Assembly (NCBI GenBank): GCA_024654575.1 | Contig: JANLHG010000020.1 | Span: 55,991-119,990, forward strand | From: Patescibacteria group bacterium | GTDB taxonomy: Bacteria; Patescibacteriota; Minisyncoccia; Phycocordibacterales; PALSA-1337 | DNA length: 64,000 nucleotides | Direction of reading: 5' to 3' | Shown here: in pieces, positions 3,520-18,709 of the stretch | Layout: each line of letters begins with the position of its first letter | How positions within the stretch are numbered: position 1 is the stretch's first letter | Translations under genes and position numbers: made by a program | The notes under the pieces: model-generated | What the model was told of the DNA's origin: nothing | The model's input: the letters and a program-made list of their open reading frames with translations, nothing else | Databases searched by the model: none

Positions 3520-3587
3520 CCAGACACGGGTAGAAAACCTATCATATTAGGATCGCCGTGTCTGGCCGTACCAGAGAAATTTGGTAC
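3520..3587 (+). promoter_or_regulatory. Two adjacent perfect hairpins (CCAGACACGG-N26-CCGTGTCTGG; GTACCA-N8-TGGTAC) in the leader of the 3642.. gene
   Basis: 10-bp and 6-bp perfect inverted repeats read directly from sequence. Confidence 0.35.
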
Positions 3588-3641
3588 TGGAGAACCGAAA
3601 GGAACTCGCTTAATGTGGTAGGTTTTTTGCGTGTAGAAATT

Positions 3642-3899: not shown

Positions 3900-3904
3900 T
3901 TATA

Positions 3905-4570: not shown

Positions 4571-4578
4571 TATAAAAT

Positions 4579-5157
4579 ATGGAAGATTCTATAAATTCAT
4601 TTCTTGGTAGTCACAGATTACTAGTTATATTAGTGGGAGGATTTATTATTATAGGACCTTTTGTAATTCCGTCTATAAAAGATTATTTTTCTTCAGATAG
4701 TAAGTTAAGACGTAAAAAAAGTCGAGAAAAAAGAAACTACGAACTAAAACAACAAATACAGGAGAAACTAATGCTTACTAAAGAAACTGAAAACAGAAGA
4801 AAAATAGAGCGACAAAAGATACAAGAACAAAGACAAAGAATAAAGGATGGGGAACACCAAAAATACCTTGATCTGAGAAAGCAAATCGAGAAAATGCCGA
4901 TTTATCAGAGATGGAAACAAGAAATAATGAACAAGTGTGGAAGCAAGTGTCAGATGTGTGGATCTAGTAATAATCTACAAGTTCATCACCTTGATTCGTT
5001 CTATTCAATCATAAAGCAGTATAATATTACCTCAATAGAAAAAGCTTTTGAATGTAAACAACTGTGGAATGTCGATAATGGAGAAATCCTTTGTAAAAAC
5101 TGTCACGATAAAATGGAAAGTTCAATTAATAGGCAGACTTTAATGTATAATACGTAA
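4579..5157 (+). CDS. membrane-anchored HNH endonuclease domain protein
   Basis: N-terminal TM helix, Lys/Arg/Glu-rich coiled-coil region, C-terminal CQMCGSSNNLQVHHLDSF...NGEILCKNCHDK (C-x2-C...HH...N...C-x2-C-H HNH signature). Confidence 0.6.
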   Translation: MEDSINSFLGSHRLLVILVGGFIIIGPFVIPSIKDYFSSDSKLRRKKSREKRNYELKQQIQEKLMLTKETENRRKIERQKIQEQRQRIKDGEHQKYLDLRKQIEKMPIYQRWKQEIMNKCGSKCQMCGSSNNLQVHHLDSFYSIIKQYNITSIEKAFECKQLWNVDNGEILCKNCHDKMESSINRQTLMYNT

Positions 5158-5159
5158 GC

Positions 5160-6077
5160 ATGAAAACTCTATACAAAAAAATAAATCAGCTTTGGTTGCG
5201 GTGTCGAAAGTGGAGCGAGATTAGTATAATCGGTGATTTTGTTATTAACACAGGAAGGATTGTTTTCATCATTACTATTTTCTTCTCAATCTTTTATATC
5301 ATTACTGTGATAGAGATATATAATGAAAATAAATTTCCTCAACTATCCCCCTCGAATAATTCTAAATCTACTACAGACAATAACTGCTCTGTTGCTGGTA
5401 TCAATTTACATGGGACGATAGTCACATATATTCCAGTATATAGTGATAATGATTCTTCATATGACGATATGATTGCAAGCGAAAGAGTTATCTGGGCCAT
5501 TAGACAGGCAAACAATGATTCAAAGATAAAAGCGCTTGTAGTTGAGGTAGATTCTATCGGAGGATATCCTGTAGCAGGTGAAGAAGTAGCTAATGCTATA
5601 AAAGATAGTAAAAAACCAGTTGTAGGATTTATAAGAGAAACAGGAGCTTCAGCTGCTTATTGGGCTATCAGTAGTGCTGACAAAATATTCGCTTCAGCAA
5701 ATTCTGATGTGGGGAGTATAGGAGTCACTCGTTCCTATTTAAGTAATGCTGAGAAAAATATTAAAGACGGCTATGTGTATGAAGATTTGAGTGTGGGTAA
5801 ATATAAGGACTCTGGAAACCCAGACAAAGTGCTAACAAACGAAGAAAGGGCTTTGTTTTTGAGAGATTCAAATATCATATATGAGAATTTTATTAAAGCT
5901 GTGTCACAAAATCGTAAAATTCCAATAGAAAAGGTAAGAAAGTTCGCTGACGGTTCAACTTTTTTAGGTGAAAAAGCAAAATCACTTGGACTGATAGATG
6001 AGATTGGTGGAATAAATGAAGTTGAAAAATACCTTGAGGAAATAACGGGAGAGAAACCAGAGATTTGTTGGCAATAA
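5160..6077 (+). CDS. sppA: S49 family peptidase (signal peptide peptidase SppA-like; same family as phage prohead proteases)
   Basis: N-terminal TM, then VVEVDSIGGYPVAGEEVANAI...GASAAYWAIS...GSIGV motifs typical of SppA/ClpP-fold serine peptidases. Confidence 0.7.
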   Translation: MKTLYKKINQLWLRCRKWSEISIIGDFVINTGRIVFIITIFFSIFYIITVIEIYNENKFPQLSPSNNSKSTTDNNCSVAGINLHGTIVTYIPVYSDNDSSYDDMIASERVIWAIRQANNDSKIKALVVEVDSIGGYPVAGEEVANAIKDSKKPVVGFIRETGASAAYWAISSADKIFASANSDVGSIGVTRSYLSNAEKNIKDGYVYEDLSVGKYKDSGNPDKVLTNEERALFLRDSNIIYENFIKAVSQNRKIPIEKVRKFADGSTFLGEKAKSLGLIDEIGGINEVEKYLEEITGEKPEICWQ

Positions 6078-6101
6078 AAAGGACGATGATATTATAGTGA
6101 A

Positions 6102-6671
6102 ATGACAACATCACTTATAGAGAACTCTTTTGCTATAACTACTCATTTATTAAAAAAAGATCTCAAAAAAGCACGACAAAAAACGCCTATAAATGGATAT
6201 TTGAATATATTCCATAATAATAAGCCATCTATAGCGGACTATTTAATAGAATATGACGGCGAAAATACATATCTTGTGATTAATTTTGCCGAAAAGTCAC
6301 AGAAAATCCTATTATCAGAACACCAATTAACTTTCGGAACACGAACATATCTAAATTGCGCTTGCGGACATAGGACCAATTCTCTTTATTTGAATAAAGG
6401 AATTTTTGCTTGTAAAAAATGCCATAATTTACACTATCAATCTACATCAATAAACCGTAATACCTTGCATGGTAAATTTCTTTACCAACAGAATCAGATA
6501 TTGAAAATAATAAATATGAGAGAAAGTATGAATCGTATTTTCTATAAATCCCGCTACAGTAAGCCATTTGTGCGCTGGCTAGATCTATGTGGAAAAGCAG
6601 GACTGATTAAGGAGGTAGAAGATGCGCAAGCACTTATTACGGCTATAAATAACTATCGACAGCAAGTTTAG
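6102..6671 (+). CDS. hypothetical protein with Cys/His cluster (CACGH...CKKCH)
   Basis: ORF 189 aa, putative zinc-binding motif. Confidence 0.35.
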   Translation: MTTSLIENSFAITTHLLKKDLKKARQKTPINGYLNIFHNNKPSIADYLIEYDGENTYLVINFAEKSQKILLSEHQLTFGTRTYLNCACGHRTNSLYLNKGIFACKKCHNLHYQSTSINRNTLHGKFLYQQNQILKIINMRESMNRIFYKSRYSKPFVRWLDLCGKAGLIKEVEDAQALITAINNYRQQV

Positions 6672-6949
6672 ATAAATTCAATAGTTTTTTGATATATAAA
6701 AAGTGGGAATGCCGATATTTCGGTAAATATGGCTGTATCAAGCCGTGTTTTTGATTTTTATAATTGGTTGACAATTCTAAAAAGTACTATGGTACACTTA
6801 AATTAATTATGAATATAAATTATTTAGGTATGAATTTTTGTTTCTTTACAATTCAAATTCCAAAATATGGAATAAAGGGTAACCATATTAAACATCCCTT
6901 TTAAATGGTGAGGATAATGTCCAGTAATAATTGCCTGGCTTTGAAACAC

Positions 6950-7210
6950 CGAAGAAATGCCGTGATTACGAATAGATTGTTGGGCCAAGAATCCTGACAT
7001 GCTATGGTATCGCATTTGGATCGTCCATTGTTGTGAAAGCTGGGAGAACAGCGAGCTTCACGGATATTGCCCAAGCTACCCAGCCGTTTGAACAGTGTGT
7101 GATCTAAATGAGGAGTTAGTTGGCTAAAGTGCCCGTTGCTTTCACACGGGATTTGTAGTGGGTTGTCTAAAAGTTTCGTCCACCTTAAATGGTGCCTTCA
7201 TTTTTAAGAT
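6950..7210. ncRNA. GC-enriched non-coding segment, candidate structured RNA (unclassified)
   Basis: 850-bp gap without credible ORF; local GC rise; hairpins CCGTGA...TCACGG and CCCGT-N9-ACGGG. Confidence 0.2.
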
Positions 7211-7526
7211 TTTGACTACAGCTAGGGAAGAATTAATGATGCACAACTGAACTGAAAGGAATTTGATATATAAAGACGATTGCTACTTGAAAAAACAGAA
7301 ACAAAGAAGAAATTGGACGAAAAGATTTAGCTAAACGCCCAATTTTATAGCACATATACACTTATATGCTTATTTGTTTCTAGTTTTACATCCCAAGCAA
7401 GACAACCACTTCAGCTTTTTTCTAGGGAAGGGGTAATCCGTCCTGCCTAAATAGTGCTGTATAGAAACTTCAATAAACCTATATGTAAATTAGAAGCAAA
7501 TTATTAATTAAGCTAACTTTACTCAA

Positions 7527-7778
7527 ATGACAATAAAAAACGCAAGAATGAATGTAGGTGTCAGGCAAAAACTGGCATCCTTACCTCGTACTCGATGTGC
7601 TAAATGTAATAGTGTTAAATCTTACACGAACCCTATGGCTAAATGCTGGGAATGTAAGAAAAAGTTTTGTTTTGACGATATTCGAAGCGGACAATTCAAA
7701 CAAGGTATGAAGCGTATAGACCAGTTAAGAAGAATTTGTGATGAGTGCAAAGAGAAATATGGATATGATGGGATATAA
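7527..7778 (+). CDS. small zinc-ribbon protein (three CxxC pairs)
   Basis: CAKCN...CWECKKKFC...CDEC. Confidence 0.4.
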   Translation: MTIKNARMNVGVRQKLASLPRTRCAKCNSVKSYTNPMAKCWECKKKFCFDDIRSGQFKQGMKRIDQLRRICDECKEKYGYDGI

Positions 7779-7790
7779 CTTTTGTAAAAT

Positions 7791-8264
7791 TCAATTTATC
7801 GTTGATGGTCGCAACTGCCAATCTTTATACAGATATCTTTTAAATGATCCTGGAAAATAAGGTTTCAACCATAAAATAGCTTGATTATCAGCATCTCTTT
7901 CCATCTTTGTATTAAGAACGCCATCTTCTGTATCTTCAATTCTTCTAAACCCATGTCTTTTATATACATGTGCAACTTCGTGGGCAATAGCAAACGCTAT
8001 CCTTTTTTCACTTTTGGACCAAAGTGAATTAGATAATATAATTAATCCCCGCTTACCTTTAAGACGAAAATCATTTCTTGCTATATACTCTCCCCTATCT
8101 TTCTTATCTAGAGATATAAAAACACATTTTTCAATCACAAAATCAACTATATTCTCTGGTAGATACGATAAAGCTTTTGCTAAAGGGTTTATATTTTCCT
8201 CAGAAATGAAATCCTTGAAATACACACAGTCCATTTCATTAGTAACTTCTCTTTGTGTATACAT
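7791..8264 (-). CDS. ImmA/IrrE-family-like zinc metallopeptidase
   Basis: AIAHEVAHVYKRH (HExxH) followed by ...ERDADNQA; size 157 aa. Confidence 0.5.
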   Translation of the reverse strand: MYTQREVTNEMDCVYFKDFISEENINPLAKALSYLPENIVDFVIEKCVFISLDKKDRGEYIARNDFRLKGKRGLIILSNSLWSKSEKRIAFAIAHEVAHVYKRHGFRRIEDTEDGVLNTKMERDADNQAILWLKPYFPGSFKRYLYKDWQLRPSTIN

Positions 8265-8271
8265 AAAAGTA

Positions 8272-8469
8272 TTATAGCGTATTTAATTCATTTTTCTCTT
8301 TCATTAACCTAATCTCTCTTTTAAGTGCTATGCCTGTTAATTTGAGAAGTTTTACACCAATATCATTTATTGTCTTATCATCAAGTTTAGCTAAATATTC
8401 TTTTCCAAAATCTTTTCTCAATATTTCCTTTAATTTATTAAATGCTTTTGGGGATAGTTTAGTAGTCAT
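8272..8469 (-). CDS. hypothetical protein
   Basis: ORF 65 aa, overlaps next gene by 4 nt. Confidence 0.3.
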   Translation of the reverse strand: MTTKLSPKAFNKLKEILRKDFGKEYLAKLDDKTINDIGVKLLKLTGIALKREIRLMKEKNELNTL

Positions 8470-8774
8470 TTTTTAACTTTATTATGATATTGTAATACCT
8501 TTTCTGCTGGCGATAGGCCATCAAGAGCTTCGTGAGGAAAGTAATTCCAGGCATCGCTTACTAATTCAAGAATGTCGCTTAATTCTGAAGCATCTCCGCC
8601 TCTATCAAACATTGCCACAGCTTTCATCATGTCGTCATTATCTTCTTCAAAAAAAATGACATCTGCTATATCTTGCAAGCCAAAATCACTTTCAGTTTTC
8701 TTTAGCATTTCCACTAGTTCCTTTTCAATCTCTTTCCTTCTTTTTATAATTTGTTTTTTTGATTCAATTTGCAT
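8466..8774 (-). CDS. hypothetical acidic protein
   Basis: ORF 102 aa. Confidence 0.3.
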   Translation of the reverse strand: MQIESKKQIIKRRKEIEKELVEMLKKTESDFGLQDIADVIFFEEDNDDMMKAVAMFDRGGDASELSDILELVSDAWNYFPHEALDGLSPAEKVLQYHNKVKK

Positions 8775-8838
8775 AAATTAAAATATATTTACTATTTTAT
8801 AATAACATCGACAACTTGTTTTTGAATAAAAAGATTGC

Positions 8839-9315
8839 TCAAAAAAATGTAAGAAAAGATGAAATAATCGCAACACTCACTGGTACCCATATTTGTAGTA
8901 GTTTTTCTCTTTGTTTTTCTGTTTTGTATCTAAAGAAACAAAACCAATGATCAGTAAAGTCATAAAAAGATGATTGTATCGTTATTATTTTATTGTAATG
9001 TTTTTCTAATAACTCTTGTGTGAAAATTAGATGATCTATTTTTTCTTCGTTAAGGTCCTTAGAATTTATTACTAAACAATCACCAACATGATAAATTTTA
9101 TCATTGCCACCAGTTTCAACTGTAACTAAATGTTCCCGTTCCAGAAAATCTAGAGTATAAAATATTTCATCTAATTCGCTAAGAGATTTCAGGTTTTTAC
9201 TACATATTCCATTATCACAAACAATTAAGTTTAATTCTTGACGACTAAGAAGTTCATTGACTCTTTTTTGTCGTCCAGTTTTTAATAAATCAATTAGATT
9301 CTTATTTAATTTCAT
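8839..9315 (-). CDS. hypothetical protein (C-terminal TM)
   Basis: ORF 158 aa immediately downstream of GIY-YIG gene. Confidence 0.35.
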   Translation of the reverse strand: MKLNKNLIDLLKTGRQKRVNELLSRQELNLIVCDNGICSKNLKSLSELDEIFYTLDFLEREHLVTVETGGNDKIYHVGDCLVINSKDLNEEKIDHLIFTQELLEKHYNKIITIQSSFYDFTDHWFCFFRYKTEKQREKLLQIWVPVSVAIISSFLTFF

Positions 9316-9320
9316 AAAAT

Positions 9321-10160
9321 TTACTTCCTAACATTTTCATCAAGTGAATGTCCTTGATTATCTTTCCAAGTATCCCAGCCGTTACAAATACCACCAATAA
9401 TTACATTTCCAGCAGAACTAGGGCTGGTAAATATGTAATCCTTAGTAAAGATATAAGAATTTTCGTCGTGATCTTTGAGAATACCGTCTTCAATCAACCT
9501 GTTTTTTAGTTGTTTACTAGAATTTCTTAAAAAAGACGGCTGTTCTTTTTTTCGAGCAAGCGAATTTTTATAAACTATAAATTCTTCTGTAGGAAGTAAT
9601 GTCCCATGCCCATCTGCACCCTTCAAGGTTACATATTTCATAGAATACATAACGCCACCAATTTGTTTTTTCGAATCTTCAAATACTAGATAGCCAAACA
9701 ATCCAGCCACAAGCTTGATATGTTCGAAACATTGAAAGGCGACTATCTTCTGTGCTTCAGAAAGCCTATTTTCTCTTGGTATTGCAGTATTAGAAATATC
9801 ATATCGATCTGCCTTCTTGGCAGTATCCACAGAAATACTTTCAAGATACTTTATAAGGGCACTGTCCAAACTACCAACGAATATAAAGGCAACATTCCAC
9901 TCATCTTCTTCTCTGTCAGCATCATGCGATATTAGTCTCCCAATAACATTTTCTGATTGGCCAATATATACTGATGGTCGTTCCTTTCCTTCACCGAATA
10001 AAAAATATAATCCAGGTTGTCCTACTTCTTCTCTAGCACGAAGTTCCGCAAGTTTTCCTCTTGGGGCAATAAACACCTTTCCAGTTCTTCCTTCCATTTC
10101 AATTAGCCGAAGTCCCTTTGGGTTATCATTCAGTAGAATTGTTGTTATTACTTGTGCCAT
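9321..10160 (-). CDS. GIY-YIG nuclease family protein with C-terminal uncharacterised domain
   Basis: GLYFLFGEGKERPSVYIGQSENVIGRLISH matches GIY-x(9-11)-YIG plus conserved Arg. Confidence 0.6.
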   Translation of the reverse strand: MAQVITTILLNDNPKGLRLIEMEGRTGKVFIAPRGKLAELRAREEVGQPGLYFLFGEGKERPSVYIGQSENVIGRLISHDADREEDEWNVAFIFVGSLDSALIKYLESISVDTAKKADRYDISNTAIPRENRLSEAQKIVAFQCFEHIKLVAGLFGYLVFEDSKKQIGGVMYSMKYVTLKGADGHGTLLPTEEFIVYKNSLARKKEQPSFLRNSSKQLKNRLIEDGILKDHDENSYIFTKDYIFTSPSSAGNVIIGGICNGWDTWKDNQGHSLDENVRK

Positions 10161-10203
10161 GAAATTATTTAATAGGATTATATCACTTACTTCACTAATT
10201 TGA

Positions 10204-11043
10204 TTATTTTAATTTTTTTGCAATTTCGTATTCTTTTTTAGTAAGCTCTAAATTGCATTTTTTACATTTATATAAATCCGAAAAAGTTCTACTTGAACCA
10301 TATAAACTAGCAGCTTGTGGAAAAATGTCTGAATCTGATCCATCTAAAGAAAAGTCATATGCACCACAACGTGGACATTCTTCGCCAGTAATACTATACC
10401 CATAAGCAGAACTACGTGTATACATTGGAATAGCGAGACCGCCAAAAACCATTGTCTCCAGTGTATTTTTAATTGGTGTTATCTTTGTTTTGACTTCTTC
10501 AATTAAAACTTTCTCTAGTTCTTCTTCAGAGTATTTCTTTTTAGGTTTATTAGCTTTTATTAAATCCTTACCGAATATAGATATTGCTTGAGTAGATATT
10601 TTTTCCCATACTGTTCCTATTTTTTTAACTATATTTTCTCTGTCAGATAAAATACCAGCATCCGACTTATATCCATGAACAAAATGATTTCTAACCTTAT
10701 AAATATCAATTAAGACCTGCATCTCATCATCAGAAAAATCATTTTTGAACATTAATTTATATCTATCGAGGGTTTCTCTTATTCTAATAGTCTCAATATT
10801 CAATTCCTTTCCTTTTATAATTGCCACAAGAGAGTCATTCTCTTTGATTTTAGTATTTTCATAAACCAAAACTGGATTTTCATCATGTAGTTTAATTTTT
10901 AAAATTTTTTCTGTTACAATACAAAAAGAAACCACTATTTCTGGCAAGTCCTCTTGTTTGGTTGGAACATCAAAGAGATACTCGCCGACAACTGAATAGA
11001 GTCTAAGAAGATATTTATAATTTTTATCATTTTTTTCTTTCAT
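10204..11043 (-). CDS. putative HEPN-domain protein with C-terminal zinc ribbon
   Basis: IDIYKVRNHFVHGY (R-x4-H-x-Y HEPN-like motif); C-terminal CPRCG...CKKCN. Confidence 0.45.
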   Translation of the reverse strand: MKEKNDKNYKYLLRLYSVVGEYLFDVPTKQEDLPEIVVSFCIVTEKILKIKLHDENPVLVYENTKIKENDSLVAIIKGKELNIETIRIRETLDRYKLMFKNDFSDDEMQVLIDIYKVRNHFVHGYKSDAGILSDRENIVKKIGTVWEKISTQAISIFGKDLIKANKPKKKYSEEELEKVLIEEVKTKITPIKNTLETMVFGGLAIPMYTRSSAYGYSITGEECPRCGAYDFSLDGSDSDIFPQAASLYGSSRTFSDLYKCKKCNLELTKKEYEIAKKLK

Positions 11044-11048
11044 AATTT

Positions 11049-11981
11049 TTATGAAGGCTTTTTTTCTGATGTATCGATTTTCATATTCTCTATTTTCTCA
11101 GGACCAACATCTTGAATCTTTGCTTCCTCCTTTTTGGTTGGGAGAATCTTATCTATAATTTCAAATATCAATTCTGTAGGTACAACCCTTACTAATCCTG
11201 TTTGTTCAGTAAATACTATCCGTGGTTCTCCTGTCTGTTGGCTAATAGCAATATCAGAGTAGGTTTCTCCAGAACTAATAACTCCAATTAATCCTGCCGA
11301 AGAATTACTTTGAGTGCCTGTAATCGCCACTACCTCAGGCTTGTTGATAACAGGACCTCCACTATTTCCAGGATAAGCAGAGGCATCTATATAAAAGAAA
11401 CAATCTTCTAATACTTCTTCATCAACTCTAGCTATTATCCCTTGTCTCACAATTACGAAATTTCTTGTCTTGCCACTTATGCGCATCGGAAATCCAAGCA
11501 CAAACAATCCATCTCCAGTTGAAATATTTTCTATTGAGAAATCTTTAGCATAAAATATACTGTCCTCTCTAAAAAAGTAAAAATTTATTTTTGCATCATT
11601 AATTGCTACAGCATTAATAGGAAGAACAGCTAAATCAACTTTTTCACTCTCATGCATAAGCCAAAGAGGACTTTTGTCCTCTTTTAATAAAGGTACTTTA
11701 AAGTAATGACTTTTACTATCTAGGGTATTAAACCTAAAAAAGACTTCCTTTAATAGCTCTTTTGTTTTTGGATTTTGGAAAACATGTCTATTTGTTACAA
11801 CAAATAATTTAAAAAGGGGTTGTTTTTGATCATTTTCTCCCACTTTCTTACCAACTAAAAATCCTGTTGCAATTGAAATTTTACTTAATACTCCAGTAGT
11901 GTCTTTATTTTCTACCTCAATTGATACAACTGAATTTAAATATTGTGGTGGTATTAGAGACATAATTTCTATTCCTCCCAA
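11049..11981 (-). CDS. trypsin-like (S1 family) serine protease
   Basis: catalytic triad context TNRHV (His), DLAVL (Asp), GNSGGPV (Ser). Confidence 0.7.
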   Translation of the reverse strand: MGGIEIMSLIPPQYLNSVVSIEVENKDTTGVLSKISIATGFLVGKKVGENDQKQPLFKLFVVTNRHVFQNPKTKELLKEVFFRFNTLDSKSHYFKVPLLKEDKSPLWLMHESEKVDLAVLPINAVAINDAKINFYFFREDSIFYAKDFSIENISTGDGLFVLGFPMRISGKTRNFVIVRQGIIARVDEEVLEDCFFYIDASAYPGNSGGPVINKPEVVAITGTQSNSSAGLIGVISSGETYSDIAISQQTGEPRIVFTEQTGLVRVVPTELIFEIIDKILPTKKEEAKIQDVGPEKIENMKIDTSEKKPS

Positions 11982-14482
11982 AGTTTAGCTAGGGTGTCTT
12001 TAGTCTTTTGTTCATAAATCTCGATCAGTTTTTTATTACCTTCGACGAGAGTACGCTCCGATTCAATACGTTCCACGATTTGTTTTTGAATTCCGAGAGG
12101 TGGAAGAGGAATTTCAAAGCTAGAAACTTGGGCCAAAGATAAATTACTTTGAGCAACGCCCACTTTCAAACCAAGAATTTGGTTCTGAATCATATCTGAT
12201 CTTAAAACTTGTTCGAGGTATTTTGAATTTAGTTCTTTTTTTGGTGAAATTATTGCAAGTGCTTGGTTAGTATTGGCAGGTAATACAGAAGAATCTACCA
12301 AAGCAACTCGTCCAAGAGCGCCGGCGATTGAAAACAAGACATCATTTTCTTCCAACTGAGATCGTTTTAGAGATTCGTTACATTTCTGATTTATATGGGC
12401 AAATTTCTTCTTGATAAAATATCCATCATTATCAATTGATTCTATTTTAATAAAGTTAATTCCACTTTCTTGAAACTCAAATCCATTTGTGGTGGGAGTT
12501 GTCCCTTTTGTTACTCTGTTTGATACTTCTTCTAATTTCACCTTCTTCCACGAAGGATCAATTACTATGATTGGCTTCCAACTTGAAATGATTTGCTTAG
12601 CGCCGGCGATGATGTTTTGGTAGCCGTCTAGTTCAGCGACAATTTGCTGTTGGATTTCTAATGGCGGAATAGGAATTTTTTGATTTGCAATAGTTACATG
12701 CCCTAAATGCTTTTGAATCCCGCCCTTCATTTGCTGTTGTAATAAACCTTGGAATAAATCACTCTCCAGAATATTAAAGAGATATTTTTGATCCACCTTG
12801 TTTTTATCAAAAGAAATTCTAAATAAATTATTGCTTAATATCCCTGGAACAGCCATAAAAGCCCTGCCTGGTGTGCCGGTATTTGCCATAACAAGGTCTT
12901 CAACAGTGACTTCCTTGGTTGCATATATATCTTTAACATAAATTGATTTATCCTCGCCTTTAAAATCTTGTATATATAAATACCTTTTGTAACCACTTCT
13001 AAATTCATTTAACTGCTTTTCTTTAGGTATTTGTACACCCTGAGTAAATTCACAAACATCCCCCAACCTAACTATTGGCCATTTGGCATTGGTGTAATCT
13101 GTTGCTATGCGATAGCGATCTCCAGAAAGATTGTAGTCGCCAGATTCAGTAATCTTTTCTTTTTTCACTAACCAAGCAAAAAAACTACCGTCAGATATAA
13201 GTTGATTTTTTGTTCCCGTTTCAATAGCAATTTTCTGTGCTTTAAGAACATCAAGAGCTGCACCATCATCAGTTAAATCATTTATATGACTATCAGGAAG
13301 TGGTCGTCGACGAGCACCTAAATCAAAACCATCACTTTCAACTTTAATAAATAATATCTCATCTGTTTTCTTTGCTATCTCATTATCAAAAAATAGAATA
13401 CTGGTCTTTACTCCTGCATAAGGATTAAATACACCTTGTGGTAAAGAGACAACAGCATAGAGTCCATCTTCTACAAGATTCTTACGAAGTTGCTTATGTG
13501 CTGTACCGGACTGAAAAATAATACCTTCGGGAACAATAATACCTGCTCGGCCTTGAGGCCTTAGATGGTTCATTATGTAATCCACAAATAACACTTCGGA
13601 CCGGCTAGACTGAATACTAAACTTACTATGGGTGCTAACCCCGCCTTTTGGCGACATAAATGGGGGGTTGGCGAGAATTACAGAGAATTTGTCGCCCCAA
13701 CGTTCATCCATAGAGAGCGTGTCATATTGAAATATTTTTGGATTCTTGAATTGGTGTAGATACATATTGACTTGAGCTATACGGACCATTCCAGGGTCTA
13801 TGTCGTAGCCTTCAAAATTACCCATCAAGTTTTTACGCTGATCAGGGGTCAGAGGTTTTTCCTTTTTCTTTGGATCATTTTTACCGTCGTGTTGCTCGAG
13901 TATGTGTTTGTAGGCACTCACCAAGAATCCTCCAGTACCGCAGGCAGGGTCCAATACTTTGTCTTCCTGTGTCGGATCTACTACATCCACCATAAAATCA
14001 ATAATATGGCGTGGGGTGCGGAATTGTCCCGCATCGCCTTGAGATGACATGATAGAGAGCAGATATTCGTAGGCATTACCCAATTCTTCGGGGTGTGAAT
14101 AATCAAAGTAATTAATTTCCTTCAAAAATAAGCCTAGCACTTCAGGGCTTCGATACGGCAAAAATGCGGACTTAAAAATCTCACGAAAAAGTTGTGGAAG
14201 TTGTTTTGATTCAGAAAACTTTATAAGGGCTTCACTATAGATATTCATTCGCTCTTGATTGCCTATACGAGTATCAGCAAGACGAGTCCACGCATACTGC
14301 TCCAAGTCGCCTACAAAGAACGAGGGATCTCCACCCTGCTTAATCGCAGACTGGTCCATATCATCCATAAACTTGTAGATAAGAGCATTGGTGATCTGAT
14401 CTATTTGAGAAGTTGGATTTGGGACCACGCCGACAAGGACTTGGCGAGCGGCGTCTATATGTCTTTTTGTTTCGGTGTTCAT
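11969..14482 (-). CDS. hsdM/hsdS: Type I restriction-modification fused HsdM (N6-adenine MTase) - HsdS (specificity, two TRDs) polypeptide
   Basis: DPACGTGGFL (motif I), NPPF (motif IV); C-terminal half has two target-recognition domains with conserved spacers IPIPPLEIQQQIV and IPLPPLGIQKQIV; single 837-aa ORF. Confidence 0.85.
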   Translation of the reverse strand: MNTETKRHIDAARQVLVGVVPNPTSQIDQITNALIYKFMDDMDQSAIKQGGDPSFFVGDLEQYAWTRLADTRIGNQERMNIYSEALIKFSESKQLPQLFREIFKSAFLPYRSPEVLGLFLKEINYFDYSHPEELGNAYEYLLSIMSSQGDAGQFRTPRHIIDFMVDVVDPTQEDKVLDPACGTGGFLVSAYKHILEQHDGKNDPKKKEKPLTPDQRKNLMGNFEGYDIDPGMVRIAQVNMYLHQFKNPKIFQYDTLSMDERWGDKFSVILANPPFMSPKGGVSTHSKFSIQSSRSEVLFVDYIMNHLRPQGRAGIIVPEGIIFQSGTAHKQLRKNLVEDGLYAVVSLPQGVFNPYAGVKTSILFFDNEIAKKTDEILFIKVESDGFDLGARRRPLPDSHINDLTDDGAALDVLKAQKIAIETGTKNQLISDGSFFAWLVKKEKITESGDYNLSGDRYRIATDYTNAKWPIVRLGDVCEFTQGVQIPKEKQLNEFRSGYKRYLYIQDFKGEDKSIYVKDIYATKEVTVEDLVMANTGTPGRAFMAVPGILSNNLFRISFDKNKVDQKYLFNILESDLFQGLLQQQMKGGIQKHLGHVTIANQKIPIPPLEIQQQIVAELDGYQNIIAGAKQIISSWKPIIVIDPSWKKVKLEEVSNRVTKGTTPTTNGFEFQESGINFIKIESIDNDGYFIKKKFAHINQKCNESLKRSQLEENDVLFSIAGALGRVALVDSSVLPANTNQALAIISPKKELNSKYLEQVLRSDMIQNQILGLKVGVAQSNLSLAQVSSFEIPLPPLGIQKQIVERIESERTLVEGNKKLIEIYEQKTKDTLAKLWEE

Positions 14483-14486
14483 AGTT

Positions 14487-14936
14487 TTACATTATTCCTT
14501 TAAATTGTTCTTTTGTCTGTCCTATACTTTCACTGGCATTTTTCCCATCAGCCGAATATAATTCCTTCCAATCATATTCTCTAAAATTACTTTTCTTTTT
14601 CCACGATGAATATTCGTCATAAGAAATAGGGGGTTGTGGAGAATTACCATTTAGGCTAATCAGTGGAGTTTCTGGTTCAATCTTTTTAAGATACGCTACC
14701 GCATCTTCTCTTTTTGAAAAATGATTTATTGTAAAAAGAGGGTAACGATTACAATTCCTATATGTTGCAACGCACCATATAAAATCAGTTGGCGGTTGCT
14801 CATGATAGATCTTTGTCCAAACGGCTCCATCAGCGTTAGGTTCTATTTCAACTGTCCCTTTACACAAATACAAGACAAAAATTCTGTCATCAAAATAATT
14901 CTGTCCTTGAAATTCAATTGTGTTTAGGTGATTCAT
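14487..14936 (-). CDS. hypothetical protein inserted between hsdR and hsdMS
   Basis: ORF 149 aa, 2-4 nt spacing to neighbours. Confidence 0.4.
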   Translation of the reverse strand: MNHLNTIEFQGQNYFDDRIFVLYLCKGTVEIEPNADGAVWTKIYHEQPPTDFIWCVATYRNCNRYPLFTINHFSKREDAVAYLKKIEPETPLISLNGNSPQPPISYDEYSSWKKKSNFREYDWKELYSADGKNASESIGQTKEQFKGIM

Positions 14937-14939
14937 ATT

Positions 14940-17507
14940 TTAATTCATAAAAGTGTTAAGAGACACATAATCTTTTACATATGTAGGGACTGTAGTCTTG
15001 AAGCCATTGAGTCTCTGATATTCTTCGAAATCAAATGAGGCGCAAAAATTAAGCTGTGCTAATTGCTTAGTCTCAATAATCTCTCGAACTTGCGGATCTA
15101 CTATATATGCTTTGAAAAAGCTTTTAACTGGCGCATAGTGCTCTTGATCTACTGTATTTACTTCCGTGAATTTACTCCATTCTGATTCAAGTAACTCATC
15201 TTTGGATTCAAAATTACTTTTCTGTCCAAAAGCGACCTGTAGAAATTCACGAATAGTAATGCGACGATCAACATTAAAAGTTTTTCTAATTCCTTGTAGA
15301 TTAAGAAAGTGATTTGGTTTGTCGAAAATGTTGGTTTTAGTATAGTCTTCAGCTGCTGCTACGTCTCCATTATTCCAAAGGTTCTTTAACGTTTCGTTGG
15401 CAAGCACATCTTCTTCTACAGCACGCTTGAAGCCTTCGCGGTCAATACGCATACCTTCGGAGCCAATATGTTTTTCTGAAATTGTAGCAAGCTCATCCTG
15501 TGTAGCTAAATCTATTGGGCCTTTGAAAATATTAGTGCCATCTTCGTCAACGAATATATCTGAACCACCGGAATCTTTACCAGTTGTTGTATCAGTTTCT
15601 TTTATCTTCTTAATCTTCGGAAGTTTAATCTTTTCGTCATATTTAAATTCATTTTCAAAATATTCACAAGTAGCAAAAAAATCAAAGAATTTGAAATGTT
15701 CTTTATGTTTTGTGATAGTTTCTTTTGTTGCATAATCAATATATTCAAATTGATATTTTCTTGTGCCTCTTCCTTTAATTTGCACAAACTCCGCAGGGCT
15801 AAACACTGGACGCATCAGTGCTAAGTTTAAAATATCTTGACAGTCATAACCTGTAGTCATCATTCCAACAGTAACCGCTATGCGACTTTTACTAGAATCA
15901 TAACCCTCAGGACTTTTAACTTTGCCATTAAGCATATTATTAGAGAAGTTAATGGTCATTTGTTGAGCATTTTGGACCAAAGAAGTCACTTGCACGGCAA
16001 AATTTGATTCACTGTATTGTTCTGGCCATTTTTCAAAAGCCAGTTTGTTTAATATATTAGTTATTCTTGAAGCATGCTTTTGAGACACACAGAAAACAAT
16101 TGATTTTCCAAACAAGTCCAAATTATATTTTTTAGCAACAGGATCAAAGAGTCCGTTATCTATAAACGCTTTACACATTGCGATATTAGTTTCTTCGTTA
16201 AAGAATTTTCTTTCGTAATGACGTTCATTAAACACTTCGTTGATTGTCTCTCCTTGCTCTGTGGTGGAATGGACCGCATAACCATCTTCTGAGAGAAGTT
16301 CTGTGGTAATATCTGTGCGAGCGTCTACTACTATAGGATTTATAAGAAAACCATCTTTAACACCTGAAAGTAAATCATAGCTGAATGTTGGTTTACCTGA
16401 CTCGCATCCGAATGTCTTATATGTATCTAATAACTGTCTTCGTTCAAACTCTCTCTGTGTATCCGCACCTTCGCCATCAAATCCTTTGAGATAGTTTTTT
16501 GGCGTTGCGGTAAGTCCTAATTTATAGCCCACAAAGTATTCAAATACCGCACGACTGTTGCCACCAATGGACCTATGACTTTCATCACTGATAGTCAATT
16601 CAAAATCTGTAGGCGAAAATTCTTTTTTATACCTATCACCCGCAAGAAATGTCTGAATAGTAGAAACCACAATTTGAGCATTACGCCATGAATCACGGCT
16701 ATCTTTGTAGATAACACTAGTGTAATCCTTTCCTAAATATTGTTTGAAAGCTTTTTGTGCTTGTTCCTCAAGCTCTATGCGATCGACTAGAAATAGGATA
16801 CGACGAGCATTACCTGATTTAAGAAATAATTTTATGACTGCGGCAGAAATAAGCGTTTTACCAGTCCCAGTAGCCATTTCAAATAAGAATCTATTTTTAT
16901 TTTCAAATGCAGAAGATTGTAAACTTTTAATTGCCCCAACTTGATATGGACGCAATTGTTTAAGGTTATTATTATGTAGAAATTCTCGTTTCTTTGATTC
17001 GTCTTTAAAATCAGGATCATTAGCATAGCTAGGCATTTGCGATTCAATAATATAGTTTTCGTCTACTTTTGTACTAGCTAGTTCTGAAGGATTAGGAATA
17101 TATTTTTCATATTGTGTAATAGATTCTTGTGTTGGAAAACGGGAAATAGTATCAGGATTGCCATGTTTTGTATCCCATAAATAATGAATGTTGCCATTGG
17201 ATAATATAACGAATCGAGCATTTACAGTACGAGCATAATTTTTAGCTTGATCTTTAGCCGAAAGTGGATCGATCGATTCTTTCTTTGCCTCTACTACAAC
17301 AAGAGCCCTGCCGTCTTTATCTAAAAGAAGAAAATCAATAAATCCGTGCGTCTCTTGTTCAAAGTCGTCTCCAAGTTCTGAATACTTTACTCCTGGCTCA
17401 AGTTCAATATTAGCTTTTCCATTTTTATCATCTTCAAAACGCCATCCTGATTCTTCAAGCAGTTTGTTTATCTTAATACGAGCCGATGCTTCTTTTAATT
17501 TCATCAT
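14940..17507 (-). CDS. hsdR: Type I restriction enzyme R subunit (PD-(D/E)xK nuclease + SF2 helicase)
   Basis: N-terminal FIDFLLLD...VVVEAK nuclease motif; MATGTGKT Walker A; DESH; TATP. Confidence 0.85.
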   Translation of the reverse strand: MMKLKEASARIKINKLLEESGWRFEDDKNGKANIELEPGVKYSELGDDFEQETHGFIDFLLLDKDGRALVVVEAKKESIDPLSAKDQAKNYARTVNARFVILSNGNIHYLWDTKHGNPDTISRFPTQESITQYEKYIPNPSELASTKVDENYIIESQMPSYANDPDFKDESKKREFLHNNNLKQLRPYQVGAIKSLQSSAFENKNRFLFEMATGTGKTLISAAVIKLFLKSGNARRILFLVDRIELEEQAQKAFKQYLGKDYTSVIYKDSRDSWRNAQIVVSTIQTFLAGDRYKKEFSPTDFELTISDESHRSIGGNSRAVFEYFVGYKLGLTATPKNYLKGFDGEGADTQREFERRQLLDTYKTFGCESGKPTFSYDLLSGVKDGFLINPIVVDARTDITTELLSEDGYAVHSTTEQGETINEVFNERHYERKFFNEETNIAMCKAFIDNGLFDPVAKKYNLDLFGKSIVFCVSQKHASRITNILNKLAFEKWPEQYSESNFAVQVTSLVQNAQQMTINFSNNMLNGKVKSPEGYDSSKSRIAVTVGMMTTGYDCQDILNLALMRPVFSPAEFVQIKGRGTRKYQFEYIDYATKETITKHKEHFKFFDFFATCEYFENEFKYDEKIKLPKIKKIKETDTTTGKDSGGSDIFVDEDGTNIFKGPIDLATQDELATISEKHIGSEGMRIDREGFKRAVEEDVLANETLKNLWNNGDVAAAEDYTKTNIFDKPNHFLNLQGIRKTFNVDRRITIREFLQVAFGQKSNFESKDELLESEWSKFTEVNTVDQEHYAPVKSFFKAYIVDPQVREIIETKQLAQLNFCASFDFEEYQRLNGFKTTVPTYVKDYVSLNTFMN

Positions 17508-17556
17508 ATAATTCTTAGAGTATAGCGTAAAAATACACTACTTGACAAGTAGATAG

Positions 17557-17578
17557 TAACACCTGTCTTGTGGTGTTA
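17557..17578. promoter_or_regulatory. palindrome TAACACC-N8-GGTGTTA ~50 bp upstream of hsdR start (candidate operator)
   Basis: perfect 7-bp inverted repeat. Confidence 0.25.
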
Positions 17579-17787
17579 TAATTTTAAATATATAAATGAA
17601 TCAAAGTAATAGCCATTACTCAGTCTTTCTTTAAACGCTCTCTAGCTACATCTTTAACCAAATCAATAAGAGTATATTCTTCACCAAACCCTTTCTCTTT
17701 TCTTTTCTTTTCCAATCCAGTTTAGTGAAGGCATATTTTAATCTTACCAGTTTTTATATCACATTACTACCACCTATTGACACTATT

Positions 17788-17873
17788 AAAAATTTGGTGT
17801 GCAACTAAAAATTTATCCCCTTTTTTTGATTTTTTTCTTTGAAGCAACCACCCACATTGCTATAATTTAACAT
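17788..17873 (+). promoter_or_regulatory. Copy 1 of ~85-bp conserved promoter element (GTGCAAC...TTTATCCAC...TTGAAG-17-TATAAT)
   Basis: near-identical copies at 37660-37738 and 40338-40420; contains TTGAAG -35 and TATAAT -10 with 17-bp spacer and upstream A/T tract. Confidence 0.5.
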
Positions 17874-18222
17874 GTTGAGTACTGAAATATAATTTTATCT
17901 TTGTTTGTCTAATTTCTTCTCGTTAGTTACTGTAAATAATCGGTAATTAACGGGAGGGCGTTAGAAGGTAATACAGTCAATCCCTCAAATATACTGTAGT
18001 CAAGCATAGACTTAAAAAGCACTGCAAATGAAAACAAAATTTGCAAGATGTTTTCCACTTCCAGACGGCAACATGTGTTGCAAACATTGGAATGGAAACT
18101 ATATCGTCTTTCCCATGAAAGGAGATCATCGTTCAAGAAACGAAAAATCCCCCAATGAGGAGGACGATTCGGAAGAATAAACTACCAAATTTATTTTTCA
18201 ACCCACATTTCAAATTGAAGCG

Positions 18223-18476
18223 TGGGCAGAGGAAGTAATATAAAGCATGATTGGCTCTATAACTTAATGGATAAAGCAACAGATTAGTAATCTGTATCCA
18301 TCACAGGATGATTTATTCTTAAGTCATGATCTCGGTTCGAATCCGAGTAGAGCCGTTTTACTTCCTCTGTCCACTCTTCAAATTTTATAAAGAACGAAAA
18401 ATTACCCCATTTGGGGTGTGAACTAATCTTTTTATTAGAGTAGAATCATGTTTCATTTTTATCACCATATTAAATA
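18223..18476 (+). repeat. Repeated tRNA cassette copy 1: 16-bp inverted repeats (TGGGCAGAGGAAGTAA / TTACTTCCTCTGTCCA) flanking the tRNA-like gene plus ~100-bp conserved tail with CCCCATTTGGGG hairpin
   Basis: second copy at 38076-38313 with the same IRs and >90% identical tail but a different embedded tRNA-like sequence. Confidence 0.55.
18253..18355 (+). tRNA. atypical tRNA-like gene (103 nt): canonical acceptor, D arm (G18G19), anticodon arm (loop UUAGUAA) and T arm (GGTTCGAATCC), but a 35-nt insertion at the variable-arm position
   Basis: manual fold: GGCTCTA/TAGAGCC acceptor, ACAGA-TTAGTAA-TCTGT anticodon arm, CTCGG-TTCGAAT-CCGAG T arm; identity unresolved. Confidence 0.45.
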
Positions 18477-18709
18477 AACCGCGTATGTGTATCGTATTTG
18501 TTACTATATTAACGATACATTCAGTACAGGTACATTATACTATACGGCTAGTTACATAAAAGCAAGTTTCTGGGGAAAACACACATTCTAGGATATAAAA
18601 TATGAAATAAGTATGAATTATTAGTTTATGTCAATATAAGTTATACAATGCTAGTAAAATTAATATTTGGTACGATAACAACAAATGGATAGTTTTGCAT
18701 TAAACATAG

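What the first reader, a model, noticed from the sequence alone, without database searches (positions are those of the whole stretch)
9321..17507. Type I RM operon expanded with three extra effector genes (S1 protease, HEPN/Zn-ribbon, GIY-YIG nuclease)
Seven genes (hsdR, orf149, fused hsdMS, trypsin-like protease, putative HEPN protein, GIY-YIG nuclease, further small ORFs to 8272) sit on one strand. Their gaps run from 4-nt overlaps to 4-6 nt in the RM core, with 40-60 bp gaps only around the GIY-YIG gene. This implies a single transcription unit. A classical Type I system needs only R, M and S. The added nuclease, RNase-like and protease genes look like a composite defense island in which the RM complex is coupled to further effectors.
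Basis: partly seen in the sequence, partly recalled or inferred. Interest (0 to 1): 0.8.

Follow-up and report, generated by a model that had tools for sequence, protein, structure and literature searches.

The report
Restriction operon stacked with defence genes
A tiny-genome (Patescibacteria) bacterium carries a restriction-modification system followed on the same strand by three independent, already catalogued candidate anti-phage genes. This is an ordinary defence island, not a new coupled machine, although one small embedded gene family is uncharacterised.

Summary
The RM core is a two-gene Type I-like system, R plus a fused M-S. Its R subunit is 51-53% identical over its full length to plasmid systems in E. 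coli and Paracoccus, and those lack every extra gene.

The three "effectors" match known single-gene defence modules:
- the S1 protease matches PADLOC PDC-S45;
- the GIY-YIG/DUF4357 nuclease matches PDC-S14;
- the HEPN + Zn-ribbon protein has the architecture of the validated HEC-08.

These PADLOC families were defined from genes found embedded in Type I RM, BREX, DISARM or Hma systems. In about 200 related loci none of the three co-occurs with another. Each also occurs without any RM system. Tight spacing is the norm in this genome (median same-strand gap 20 nt).

Co-transcription is plausible. Obligate functional coupling to the RM complex is not supported.

Two things are modestly new. orf149 is an uncharacterised, Patescibacteria-restricted family with no fold match, and it lies in or beside RM operons of Types I, III and IIG in 5 of 5 contexts. 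The protease repeatedly sits directly 3' of restriction genes of different types.

The parts
17519..17548 (-). Promoter-like site (TTGTCA-18-TATACT) 12 nt upstream of the hsdR start codon. Candidate operon promoter.
   Evidence: 10 of 12 matches. This is a consensus match only. The total number of promoter-like sites in the region is not above the shuffled expectation.
14940..17507 (-). hsdR-like restriction subunit, 855 aa. It has an N-terminal PD-(D/E)xK nuclease (IDFLL...VVVEAKK), an SF2 motor (GTGKT, DESH) and a long C-terminal region.
   Evidence: Pfam ResIII 2.6e-38 and HSDR_N_2 1e-9. PADLOC REase_I 1.2e-60. NCBIfam EcoAI-type R scores 218 bits, below the 550-bit cutoff. It is 53% and 51% identical over its full length to plasmid proteins of E. 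coli and Paracoccus.
14487..14936 (-). orf149, a small embedded gene of unknown function. It belongs to a Patescibacteria-restricted family that recurs inside or beside RM operons.
11969..14482 (-). Fused hsdM-hsdS, 837 aa: an N6-adenine methyltransferase (motifs DPACGTGGF and NPPF) followed by two target-recognition domains.
   Evidence: Pfam N6_Mtase 2.4e-55 and Methylase_S 6.8e-35 in two stretches. PADLOC MTase_I 1.8e-100 for residues 2-459, and Specificity_I models for about 463-835. The same fusion exists as a single 858-aa CDS on Paracoccus pPZ02 (40% identity, 100% coverage).
11049..11963 (-). Cytoplasmic S1 (chymotrypsin-fold) serine protease, 304 aa from ATG 11963. It has no signal peptide and no PDZ domain. 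It is a PDC-S45-type single-gene defence candidate.
   Evidence: Pfam Trypsin_2 2.3e-13. PADLOC PDC-S45 1.1e-24, nearly full length. Triad H60/D110/S201 is invariant in 24 homologues. More than 1,800 homologues exist, up to 90% identical. A GGAGGA Shine-Dalgarno sequence lies inside the hsdMS 3' end.
10204..11043 (-). HEPN (DUF3644-like) domain plus C-terminal Zn-ribbon protein, 279 aa. Predicted RNase with the architecture of HEC-08.
9321..10160 (-). GIY-YIG nuclease domain plus C-terminal DUF4357, 279 aa. PDC-S14-type single-gene defence candidate.
   Evidence: PADLOC PDC-S14 2.9e-73, full length. Pfam DUF4357 2.9e-19. Y52, Y65-I-G67, R75, E107 and N124 are invariant in 10 sequences from 7 phyla. 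Homologues lie next to Type I RM in 5 of 10 plasmid contexts.
8839..9315 (-). orf158, an unknown protein with a hydrophobic C-terminal segment. It lies 5 nt after the GIY-YIG gene.
   Evidence: No hit in any library. No homologue in any fetched locus.
8466..8774 (-). orf102, an acidic small protein. Homologues mark the downstream end of other Patescibacteria RM cassettes.
   Evidence: 65% identical homologues lie directly after the protease in L021/L022 (Type III RM) and after the NYN gene in L200 (Type I RM with orf149). A promoter-like site with an extended -10 lies at 8826-8799.
8272..8469 (-). orf65, an unknown small protein that overlaps orf102 by 4 nt.
   Evidence: No family hit.
7791..8264 (-). 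orf157, a small HExxH zinc metallopeptidase (ImmA/IrrE- or CapP-like). It is the last gene of the run, and a convergent gene follows at 7527-7778.
   Evidence: HEVAH motif. PADLOC CapP 1.7e-6. PHROG metallo-protease 2.7e-6. Pfam M48 2.8e-4. All of these are weak.

Best explanation
The region is a defence island in a Patescibacteria (CPR) genome, built around a two-gene Type I-like restriction-modification system: R, and a fused methylase-specificity protein.

**Composition**
- One small gene of unknown function, orf149, is embedded between R and M-S.
- Three autonomous single-gene defence modules follow: a cytoplasmic S1 serine protease (PDC-S45 type), a HEPN + Zn-ribbon RNase (HEC-08-like) and a GIY-YIG/DUF4357 DNA nuclease (PDC-S14 type).
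- Four small genes come after these, including an ImmA/CapP-like metallopeptidase.

**Shown.** The gene identities, the intact catalytic motifs, the compact co-directional arrangement, and the fact that each module recurs elsewhere in different company.

**Inferred**
- The genes are largely co-transcribed from the promoter upstream of hsdR, possibly with internal promoters.
- The RM system is the first line of defence. It methylates self DNA and cleaves unmodified invading DNA after translocation.
- The add-ons act independently as back-up or abortive-infection effectors (RNA cleavage, DNA nicking or cleavage, proteolysis) when a phage escapes restriction.
- The co-location reflects the known tendency of mobile defence genes to insert into or next to RM operons, not a multi-subunit machine.
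For: **Source organism.** The window comes from a Patescibacteria MAG.

**Component identities.** Pfam, PADLOC and NCBIfam scans, motif conservation and the HEPN fold.

**Independence of the modules**
- The R/M-S core, at 51-53% (R) and 40-48% (M-S) identity, occurs on E. coli IncF and Paracoccus plasmids without any of the extras. In E. coli it carries a different add-on, Ppl.
- HEPN-ZnR homologues (113 proteins, 17 loci) sit in varied contexts: next to an XRE regulator and a serine recombinase, in a GmrSD/MTase/DUF87 island, or alone between ftsH and recG. They are never with the protease, the GIY-YIG gene or this RM system.
- Protease homologues have heterogeneous neighbours.
- GIY-YIG/DUF4357 homologues are adjacent to Type I RM in 5 of 10 plasmids, and otherwise sit next to large helicases or hypothetical genes.

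**Literature**
- PDC families were derived from genes embedded in Type I RM, BREX and DISARM systems.
- HEC-08 (DUF3644 HEPN + Zn fingers) is a validated single-gene defence that needs the histidine of its Rx4-6H motif.
- Embedded genes share the orientation of the host system in 96.7% of cases.
- TgvAB is an example of an independent system embedded in a Type I RM operon.

**Composition.** G+C is 0.35-0.39 over the RM core but 0.29-0.33 over the add-on genes, which hints at separate origins.
Against: No experiment exists for any of these proteins in this lineage, and PDC-S45 and PDC-S14 are untested candidates.

The protease start codon is arranged for translational coupling with hsdMS. In Patescibacteria the protease lies 13 nt or less downstream of restriction genes in 4 of 7 distinct contexts (window, L025, L021, L023). 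That could indicate a functional tie to restriction enzymes.

GIY-YIG/DUF4357 is next to Type I RM in half of the sampled plasmids.

My locus sample is modest and biased by what the collections hold. Gene calling in the fetched loci was crude (longest ORFs).
Confidence: 0.7

Rival explanations
1. PrrC-like guarded system. One or more of the add-on effectors (protease, HEPN RNase, GIY-YIG nuclease) is held inactive by the R/M-S complex. It fires when a phage anti-restriction protein disables restriction, so the locus works as one coupled two-layer machine.
For: - Tight, same-strand arrangement with no predicted terminator.
- The protease Shine-Dalgarno sequence lies inside the hsdMS end.
- The protease lies directly 3' of Type I, III and IV restriction genes in Patescibacteria, and near Type I RM in more distant loci L071 and L120/L121.
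- GIY-YIG/DUF4357 is embedded between hsdS and hsdR in Acinetobacter pittii and sits next to Type I RM in 5 of 10 plasmids.
- There is precedent in PrrC/EcoprrI.
Against: - Each gene also occurs with no RM gene nearby: the protease between ftsH and smpB, and HEPN-ZnR between ftsH and recG.
- The partners differ in RM type, so no specific protein-protein interface could be conserved.
- The nearest relatives of this RM core lack the add-ons.
- HEC-08 works as a single gene.
- PrrC, by contrast, is almost exclusively embedded in Type I RM.
- No add-on has PrrC's ABC-ATPase sensor domain.
Confidence: 0.15
2. The S1 protease (and possibly orf149) is not an effector but a regulator of restriction. 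It would be a dedicated protease that degrades R or M subunits to prevent self-restriction (restriction alleviation) in organisms with minimal proteostasis machinery.
For: - The protease recurs immediately after restriction subunits of unrelated types (Type I M-S, Type I S, Type III Res, GmrSD-like).
- Proteolytic control of Type I R and M-S by Lon-like proteases is documented in Pseudomonas aeruginosa.
- orf149 is embedded in or abuts RM operons in 5 of 5 contexts.
- The orf149 domain is elsewhere fused to TPR/Sel1 protein-interaction repeats.
Against: - The protease also occurs far from any RM gene.
- It matches a PADLOC family proposed as a defence candidate.
- A generic regulator would have to recognise unrelated substrates.
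- There is no direct evidence of any interaction. This is inference only.
Confidence: 0.08
3. Chance juxtaposition of unrelated (non-defence) genes in a very compact genome, so nothing but the RM system is defence-related.
For: Tight co-directional packing is the norm in this window. PDC-S45 and PDC-S14 have not been validated experimentally.
Against: - Three consecutive genes match defence-candidate models or a validated defence architecture.
- Their homologues sit in islands with GmrSD, Type III RM, SLFN-like helicase, toxin-antitoxin genes and serine recombinases.
- All catalytic motifs are intact.
Confidence: 0.05

Closest known systems
Defence genes embedded in or appended to Type I RM, BREX, DISARM and Hma operons ('guilt-by-embedding', Payne et al. 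2024, bioRxiv 10.1101/2024.01.29.577857). This includes the PADLOC candidates PDC-S14 and PDC-S45.
   Same: - Same-strand defence genes are packed into an RM operon.
- The GIY-YIG/DUF4357 protein matches PDC-S14 over its full length (2.9e-73).
- The protease matches PDC-S45 (1.1e-24).
- The PDC families were defined from genes embedded in Type I RM, BREX or DISARM systems.
   Different: Only orf149 is truly embedded, between R and M-S. The three effector genes are appended downstream of the complete RM core. The host is a Patescibacteria genome and the RM core has a fused M-S. Neither PDC family has been tested experimentally.
[quoted passage not shown]
   Same: - N-terminal HEPN domain with a conserved Rx4H motif, and a C-terminal Cys4 zinc ribbon.
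- The top structural match is the same HEPN toxin, SO_3166 (5yep), that was reported for HEC-08.
- It hits the PADLOC DUF3644 and HEC-08 models.
   Different: - The sequence match is weak and partial (E 4e-5, about 108 of 358 model positions).
- The protein is shorter (279 aa) with one ribbon rather than several.
- The family is essentially confined to Patescibacteria.
- It is not embedded in an Hma system.
PrrC / EcoprrI (and RloC): an anticodon nuclease embedded in a Type IC RM operon and triggered by phage anti-restriction.
   Same: An RNA-targeting suicide effector is encoded in the same operon as a Type I RM system.
   Different: The add-ons here have no ABC-ATPase or PrrC nuclease domain. 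They are not restricted to Type I RM contexts, whereas PrrC is almost exclusively embedded in Type I RM.
TgvAB in Vibrio cholerae VPI-2: a Type IV system embedded in a Type I RM operon.
   Same: An independent restriction-type system nested in a Type I RM cluster gives complementary protection, and it works without HsdR activity.
   Different: It is a different protein family (GmrSD-like two-gene system). It is embedded between hsd genes rather than appended.
R + M(S) two-gene systems on E. coli IncF plasmids (R - 677-aa methylase - Ppl) and Paracoccus zhejiangensis pPZ02 (R - 858-aa M-S fusion).
   Same: - The R subunit is 53% and 51% identical over its full length.
- The M part is 48% identical, and the whole M-S is 40% identical.
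- The gene order is the same, R then M(S).
- The E. coli version also carries an appended defence gene.
   Different: These systems have no orf149 between R and M(S). They lack the protease, HEPN and GIY-YIG genes. The appended gene in E. coli is the unrelated Ppl ATPase.

Membership tests
Type I restriction-modification system (classical HsdR/HsdM/HsdS) | R subunit with a PD-(D/E)xK nuclease and an SF2 translocase motor | tested here: met
   HSDR_N_2 and ResIII. REase_I 1.2e-60. Motifs D...EAK, GTGKT and DESH can be read in the translation.
Type I restriction-modification system (classical HsdR/HsdM/HsdS) | N6-adenine methyltransferase with AdoMet motif I and NPPF/Y motif IV | tested here: met
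   N6_Mtase 2.4e-55. DPACGTGGF and NPPF are present in the translation.
Type I restriction-modification system (classical HsdR/HsdM/HsdS) | Specificity module with two target-recognition domains | tested here: met
   Two Methylase_S stretches. Specificity_I models cover about 463-835.
Type I restriction-modification system (classical HsdR/HsdM/HsdS) | Three separate subunits assembling as R2M2S1 | tested here: not met
   M and S are one 837-aa polypeptide. The same fusion occurs in Paracoccus. Stoichiometry cannot be tested here.
Type I restriction-modification system (classical HsdR/HsdM/HsdS) | ATP-dependent translocation and cleavage far from a bipartite site | not testable with these tools
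   This needs biochemistry and methylome data.
PADLOC PDC-S45 (single-gene S1 protease candidate) | Near-full-length match to the family HMM, with an intact Ser-His-Asp triad | tested here: met
   PDLC05022 1.1e-24, residues 13-277 against model positions 19-281 of 293. Triad invariant.
PADLOC PDC-S45 (single-gene S1 protease candidate) | Acts as a single gene with no conserved partner | tested here: met
   Neighbours are heterogeneous across about 85 loci. No family occurs in more than 2 of 84 flanking proteins.
PADLOC PDC-S45 (single-gene S1 protease candidate) | Anti-phage activity | not testable with these tools
   The family is a candidate only.
PADLOC PDC-S14 (GIY-YIG + DUF4357) | Full-length HMM match, GIY-YIG catalytic residues and a C-terminal DUF4357 domain | tested here: met
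   PDLC04925 2.9e-73. DUF4357 2.9e-19. Y52, Y65, G67, R75, E107 and N124 invariant.
HEC-08 (HEPN/DUF3644 + Zn fingers) | HEPN fold with a conserved Rx4-6H motif | tested here: met
HEC-08 (HEPN/DUF3644 + Zn fingers) | Significant, full-length match to the HEC-08 model | tested here: inconclusive
   E 4.2e-5, covering only residues 36-151 against model positions 42-149 of 358. Pfam DUF3644 was not reported at E <= 0.01.
PrrC/RloC-type RM-guarded anticodon nuclease | ABC-ATPase N-domain plus C-terminal anticodon-nuclease domain, almost exclusively embedded in Type I RM | tested here: not met
   No such domains are present. The add-on genes also occur outside RM contexts.
Hma (helicase, methylase, ATPase) system | Three hma genes, including an ATPase | tested here: not met
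   There is no ATPase gene in the run. None of the listed PADLOC matches carries an Hma name: all 20 for R and the best 25 of 183 for M-S. The ATPase beside the E. coli relative is Ppl.
CapH/CapP-type regulator pair (for orf65/orf157) | ImmA/IrrE metallopeptidase paired with an XRE-type HTH repressor | tested here: inconclusive
   orf157 has HExxH and a weak CapP hit, 1.7e-6. No HTH domain was detected in orf65 or orf102.

The most novel reading that the evidence does not exclude
Patescibacteria may carry a lineage-specific set of promiscuous restriction accessory genes that travel with restriction enzymes of any type: orf149 (new fold), the S1 protease, and the orf102 gene at the downstream end of the cassettes.

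These genes would interact functionally with restriction. They might sense its inhibition, or control R-subunit levels by binding or proteolysis. On this reading the window shows a generic restriction add-on kit rather than independent Abi genes.
Probability: 0.15. Interest if true: 0.6.

Novelty: new member of a known kind. Interest (0 to 1): 0.33.

Why it matters
CPR/Patescibacteria mostly lack CRISPR and have very small genomes, so how they resist phages is an open question. This locus shows that they stack a compact RM system with several single-gene nuclease, RNase and protease modules. These are the same module families that PADLOC flagged from embedding in RM systems of cultivated bacteria.

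The locus offers cheap test material for PDC-S45, PDC-S14 and a short HEC-08-like HEPN protein.

It also points to orf149, and less strongly orf102, as uncharacterised small proteins specifically linked to RM operons. If the coupling reading were true, it would extend the PrrC guard paradigm to proteases and GIY-YIG nucleases. The evidence here does not favour that.

Tried and rejected
- **Exact-sequence look-ups.** Look-ups of the window's protease and HEPN proteins found nothing on record. Context therefore had to come from homologues.
- **Hma hypothesis.** The E. coli relative is flanked by an ATPase, so I tested whether the core is an Hma system. The ATPase is Ppl. None of the listed PADLOC matches for R (all 20) or M-S (best 25 of 183) carries an Hma name; the top hits are Type I REase and MTase models. 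Rejected.
- **Integration-site repeats.** I searched 6600-18700 for direct repeats flanking the island, including copies of the tRNA-like 3' end. Only short, low-identity A/T-rich pairs turned up. No recombinase was found in the flanking genes scanned.
- **IMG/VR scans.** orf149 has no viral relatives, and the protease has only distant ones. These are not phage genes.
- **Conserved partners.** I looked for a conserved partner of the HEPN protein (the downstream 65-aa and 132-aa genes in L016 and L012), and for homology between orf65/orf157 and the small genes after orf102 in L021. Nothing was significant.
- **Solved structures.** The PDB sequence search gave no usable relative for the GIY-YIG protein. 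For the protease it gave only a weak staphylococcal-type serine protease hit.
- **Fold library.** The afdb50 library was not available for orf149.
- **Fused M-S in the literature.** A search for fused HsdM-S returned only papers that use 'hsdMS' for two separate genes.

Full report
**1. What is in the sequence**

Ten ORFs lie head to tail on the minus strand between 17507 and 7791:
- hsdR (14940-17507, 855 aa)
- orf149 (14487-14936)
- a fused hsdM-hsdS (11969-14482, 837 aa)
- an S1 protease (ORF 11049-11981)
- a HEPN/Zn-ribbon protein (10204-11043)
- a GIY-YIG/DUF4357 protein (9321-10160)
- orf158 (8839-9315), orf102 (8466-8774), orf65 (8272-8469)
- a small HExxH metallopeptidase, orf157 (7791-8264)

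A convergent gene (7527-7778, + strand) closes the run.

The gaps are 3, 4, 5, 5, 43, 5, 64, -4 and 7 nt. The protease most likely starts at ATG 11963. That codon lies 9 nt after a GGAGGA embedded in the last codons of hsdMS, and homologues begin M-[AS]-LIPP.

No terminator-like hairpin is predicted on the minus strand inside the run. A promoter-like TTGTCA-18-TATACT lies at 17548-17519. An extended -10-like TGaTATAAT sits in the 43-nt gap before the GIY-YIG gene. A TG-extended -10 match precedes orf102. One long transcript is therefore plausible, but internal starts cannot be excluded.

The arrangement is not exceptional for this genome. The window is 86% coding. The median same-strand gap is 20 nt and 47% of gaps are 15 nt or less. 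Three other runs of 5-7 tightly spaced genes exist. The window comes from a Patescibacteria (CPR) metagenome-assembled genome.

**2. Gene identities**

- *R.* It has HSDR_N_2 and ResIII domains and matches PADLOC Type I REase models at 1e-60. It scores far below the NCBIfam EcoAI equivalog cutoff.
- *M-S.* It has N6_Mtase plus two Methylase_S stretches.
- *Protease.* It matches Trypsin_2. H60, D110 and S201 are invariant in 24 homologues. It has no signal peptide and no PDZ domain.
- *GIY-YIG protein.* Pfam reports only DUF4357. An alignment with ten homologues from seven phyla shows the canonical GIY-YIG catalytic set to be invariant: Y52, Y65-I-G67, R75, E107 and N124.

**3. The RM core is a recurring two-gene family**

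The R protein is 53% identical over all 855 residues to a 'DEAD/DEAH helicase' on E. coli IncF plasmids. It is 51% identical to one on Paracoccus zhejiangensis pPZ02.

In both plasmids, the next gene is the methylase:
- In Paracoccus it is an 858-aa M-S fusion, 40% identical across the whole window protein.
- In E. coli it is a 677-aa version, 48% identical over residues 1-484.

Neither relative has a gene between R and M(S), and neither has the protease, HEPN or GIY-YIG genes. The E. coli system is instead followed by Ppl, another known defence gene.

The core is therefore a self-sufficient R + M-S unit that picks up different passengers in different hosts. It meets the domain criteria of Type I RM but not the three-subunit organisation.

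**4. The three 'extra effectors' are autonomous modules**

*PADLOC matches.* The protease matches PDC-S45 (1.1e-24) and the nuclease matches PDC-S14 (2.9e-73). The HEPN protein weakly matches the DUF3644 and HEC-08 models.

*Literature.* According to Payne et al. 2024:
- the PDC families were built from genes found embedded in Type I RM, BREX and DISARM systems;
- HEC-08 (DUF3644 HEPN + zinc fingers) is a validated single-gene defence that needs the histidine of its Rx4-6H motif;
- embedded genes share the orientation of the surrounding system in 96.7% of cases.

*HEPN-ZnR family.* It comprises 113 proteins at 43-69% identity, essentially all from CPR. It was examined in 17 loci. Contexts include an XRE regulator plus serine recombinase, a GmrSD/MTase/DUF87 island, and a solitary position between ftsH and recG. 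In no case is a homologue of the protease, GIY-YIG, R or M-S present.

*Protease family.* More than 1,800 homologues exist, up to 90% identical in CPR. The family was examined in about 100 loci. None carries the HEPN or GIY-YIG gene. Among 84 flanking proteins, no Pfam family occurs more than twice.

*GIY-YIG/DUF4357 family.* Ten plasmid homologues were checked.
- Five lie next to Type I RM genes. In Acinetobacter pittii the gene is embedded between hsdS and hsdR.
- Three lie next to large helicases or ATPases.
- Two lie among hypothetical genes.

*Composition.* G+C is 0.35-0.39 over the RM core and 0.29-0.33 over the add-ons.

Taken together, the specific linkage in the window is not conserved. 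The general tendency of such genes to settle in RM operons is real and already described.

**5. What is less ordinary**

There are 120 close homologues, and a full HMMER scan found 247 cluster representatives. In all five independent contexts I could read, it lies inside or against an RM operon:
- R-orf149-MS (the window);
- RadC-orf149-hsdR-hsdM-SduA_C-x-hsdS-KTSC-NYN (L200);
- Type III Mod-orf149-Res (L103);
- Mod-Res-x-orf149 beside a serine recombinase (L106);
- an island with an MmeI-like Type IIG enzyme (L198).

Elsewhere the domain is fused to TPR or Sel1 repeats, RHS repeats or an adhesin domain. It is also repeated 9-18 times in giant proteins. That suggests a binding module rather than an enzyme.

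*(b) The protease in CPR.* It sits 13 nt or less downstream of a restriction gene in 4 of 7 distinct contexts:
- Type I M-S in the window;
- a Type I S domain in L025, with the same 13-nt ORF overlap;
- Type III Res in L021;
- a GmrSD-like enzyme in L023.

More distant family members lie near Type I genes in L071 and L120/L121. The protease also occurs alone between ftsH and smpB.

*(c) orf102.* Homologues at 65% identity lie directly after the protease in L021 and at the downstream end of the L200 Type I cassette. The run down to at least orf102 therefore looks like one recurrent cassette frame with variable cargo.

**6. Mechanism**

*Best supported (about 0.7).* The locus provides layered but independent defence.
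- The R/M-S system methylates self DNA and cleaves unmodified DNA.
- The HEPN RNase, the GIY-YIG nuclease and the protease are separately triggered back-up or abortive-infection effectors.
- They are co-expressed because they have inserted into the same operon.

*Rivals.*
- PrrC-like guard coupling (0.15).
- A regulatory role of the protease and/or orf149 in restriction alleviation (0.08). Proteolytic control of Type I R and M-S is known in Pseudomonas aeruginosa.
- Mere juxtaposition of non-defence genes (0.05).

None of the triggers, substrates or interactions is shown. They are inferred from family knowledge.

**7. Verdict**

It is a new instance, in an under-studied phylum, of a known kind of arrangement. 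Interest is moderate to low. The orf149 family, and the protease's preference for positions immediately after restriction genes, are the only leads worth following.

Noticed in passing
window 18215-18381 (+), tRNA match 18253-18355: Rfam calls a tRNA here (54.8 bits) but ARAGORN does not. It has anticodon loop UUAGUAA (AGU) and a 32-nt insertion at the variable-arm position. The whole tRNA is enclosed by a long outer stem (about 17+6 bp). The fold is very stable (-68.7 kcal/mol, z = -9.1). It lies in the 1.2-kb non-coding gap upstream of hsdR. It could be an unusual tRNA, a tRNA-like processing element or an integration-site remnant.
   Followed up: partly
window 3481-3607 (+) and 3558-6671 (+): A LOOT RNA motif (RF03000, 57 bits) lies directly upstream of, and partly overlapping, a five-gene + strand cluster. 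The cluster includes an HNH endonuclease (4579-5157) and a Peptidase_S49 protein (5160-6077). It may be a phage-like or head-maturation module.
   Followed up: no
window 10204-11043 (-): The public annotation of this exact protein is 'rod shape-determining protein'. This rests on a sub-threshold MreB hit (20 bits against a cutoff of 27). The fold and motif are HEPN, so the name is a misannotation.
   Followed up: yes
window 14487-14936 (-); proteins P0358-P0406, P0402, P0445, P0465: The orf149 domain also occurs fused to TPR or Sel1 repeats, RHS repeats and an Adhesin_E domain. It occurs as 9-18 tandem copies in giant proteins of 3,000-5,000 aa. This is reminiscent of binding or immunity-type modules. 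Its function is unknown.
   Followed up: partly
L014 8001-8834; L026/L202 (protease at 8001-8888 / 7001-7888): Both the HEPN-ZnR gene and the S1 protease gene occur as solitary insertions next to ftsH in different Patescibacteria genomes. The ftsH neighbourhood may be an insertion hotspot.
   Followed up: no
L200 8001-16429: Another Patescibacteria Type I RM operon is heavily loaded with passengers. The order is RadC, orf149, hsdR, hsdM, a SduA_C (Shedu-type) nuclease, a 145-aa gene, hsdS, KTSC, a NYN RNase, and then an orf102 homologue.
   Followed up: partly
L207 3403-10951 (E. coli IncF plasmids): A close relative of the window's R/M-S core (R 53% identical) is widespread on E. coli IncF plasmids and is followed by the anti-phage ATPase Ppl. 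RefSeq annotates the R gene only as 'DEAD/DEAH box helicase family protein'.
   Followed up: partly
window 7791-8469 (-): orf157 is a minimal HExxH metallopeptidase with weak CapP/ImmA-like matches. It is preceded by two small acidic or basic proteins (orf102, orf65) in which no HTH domain was detected. This could be a damage- or infection-responsive regulator pair for the island, but it is unproven.
   Followed up: partly
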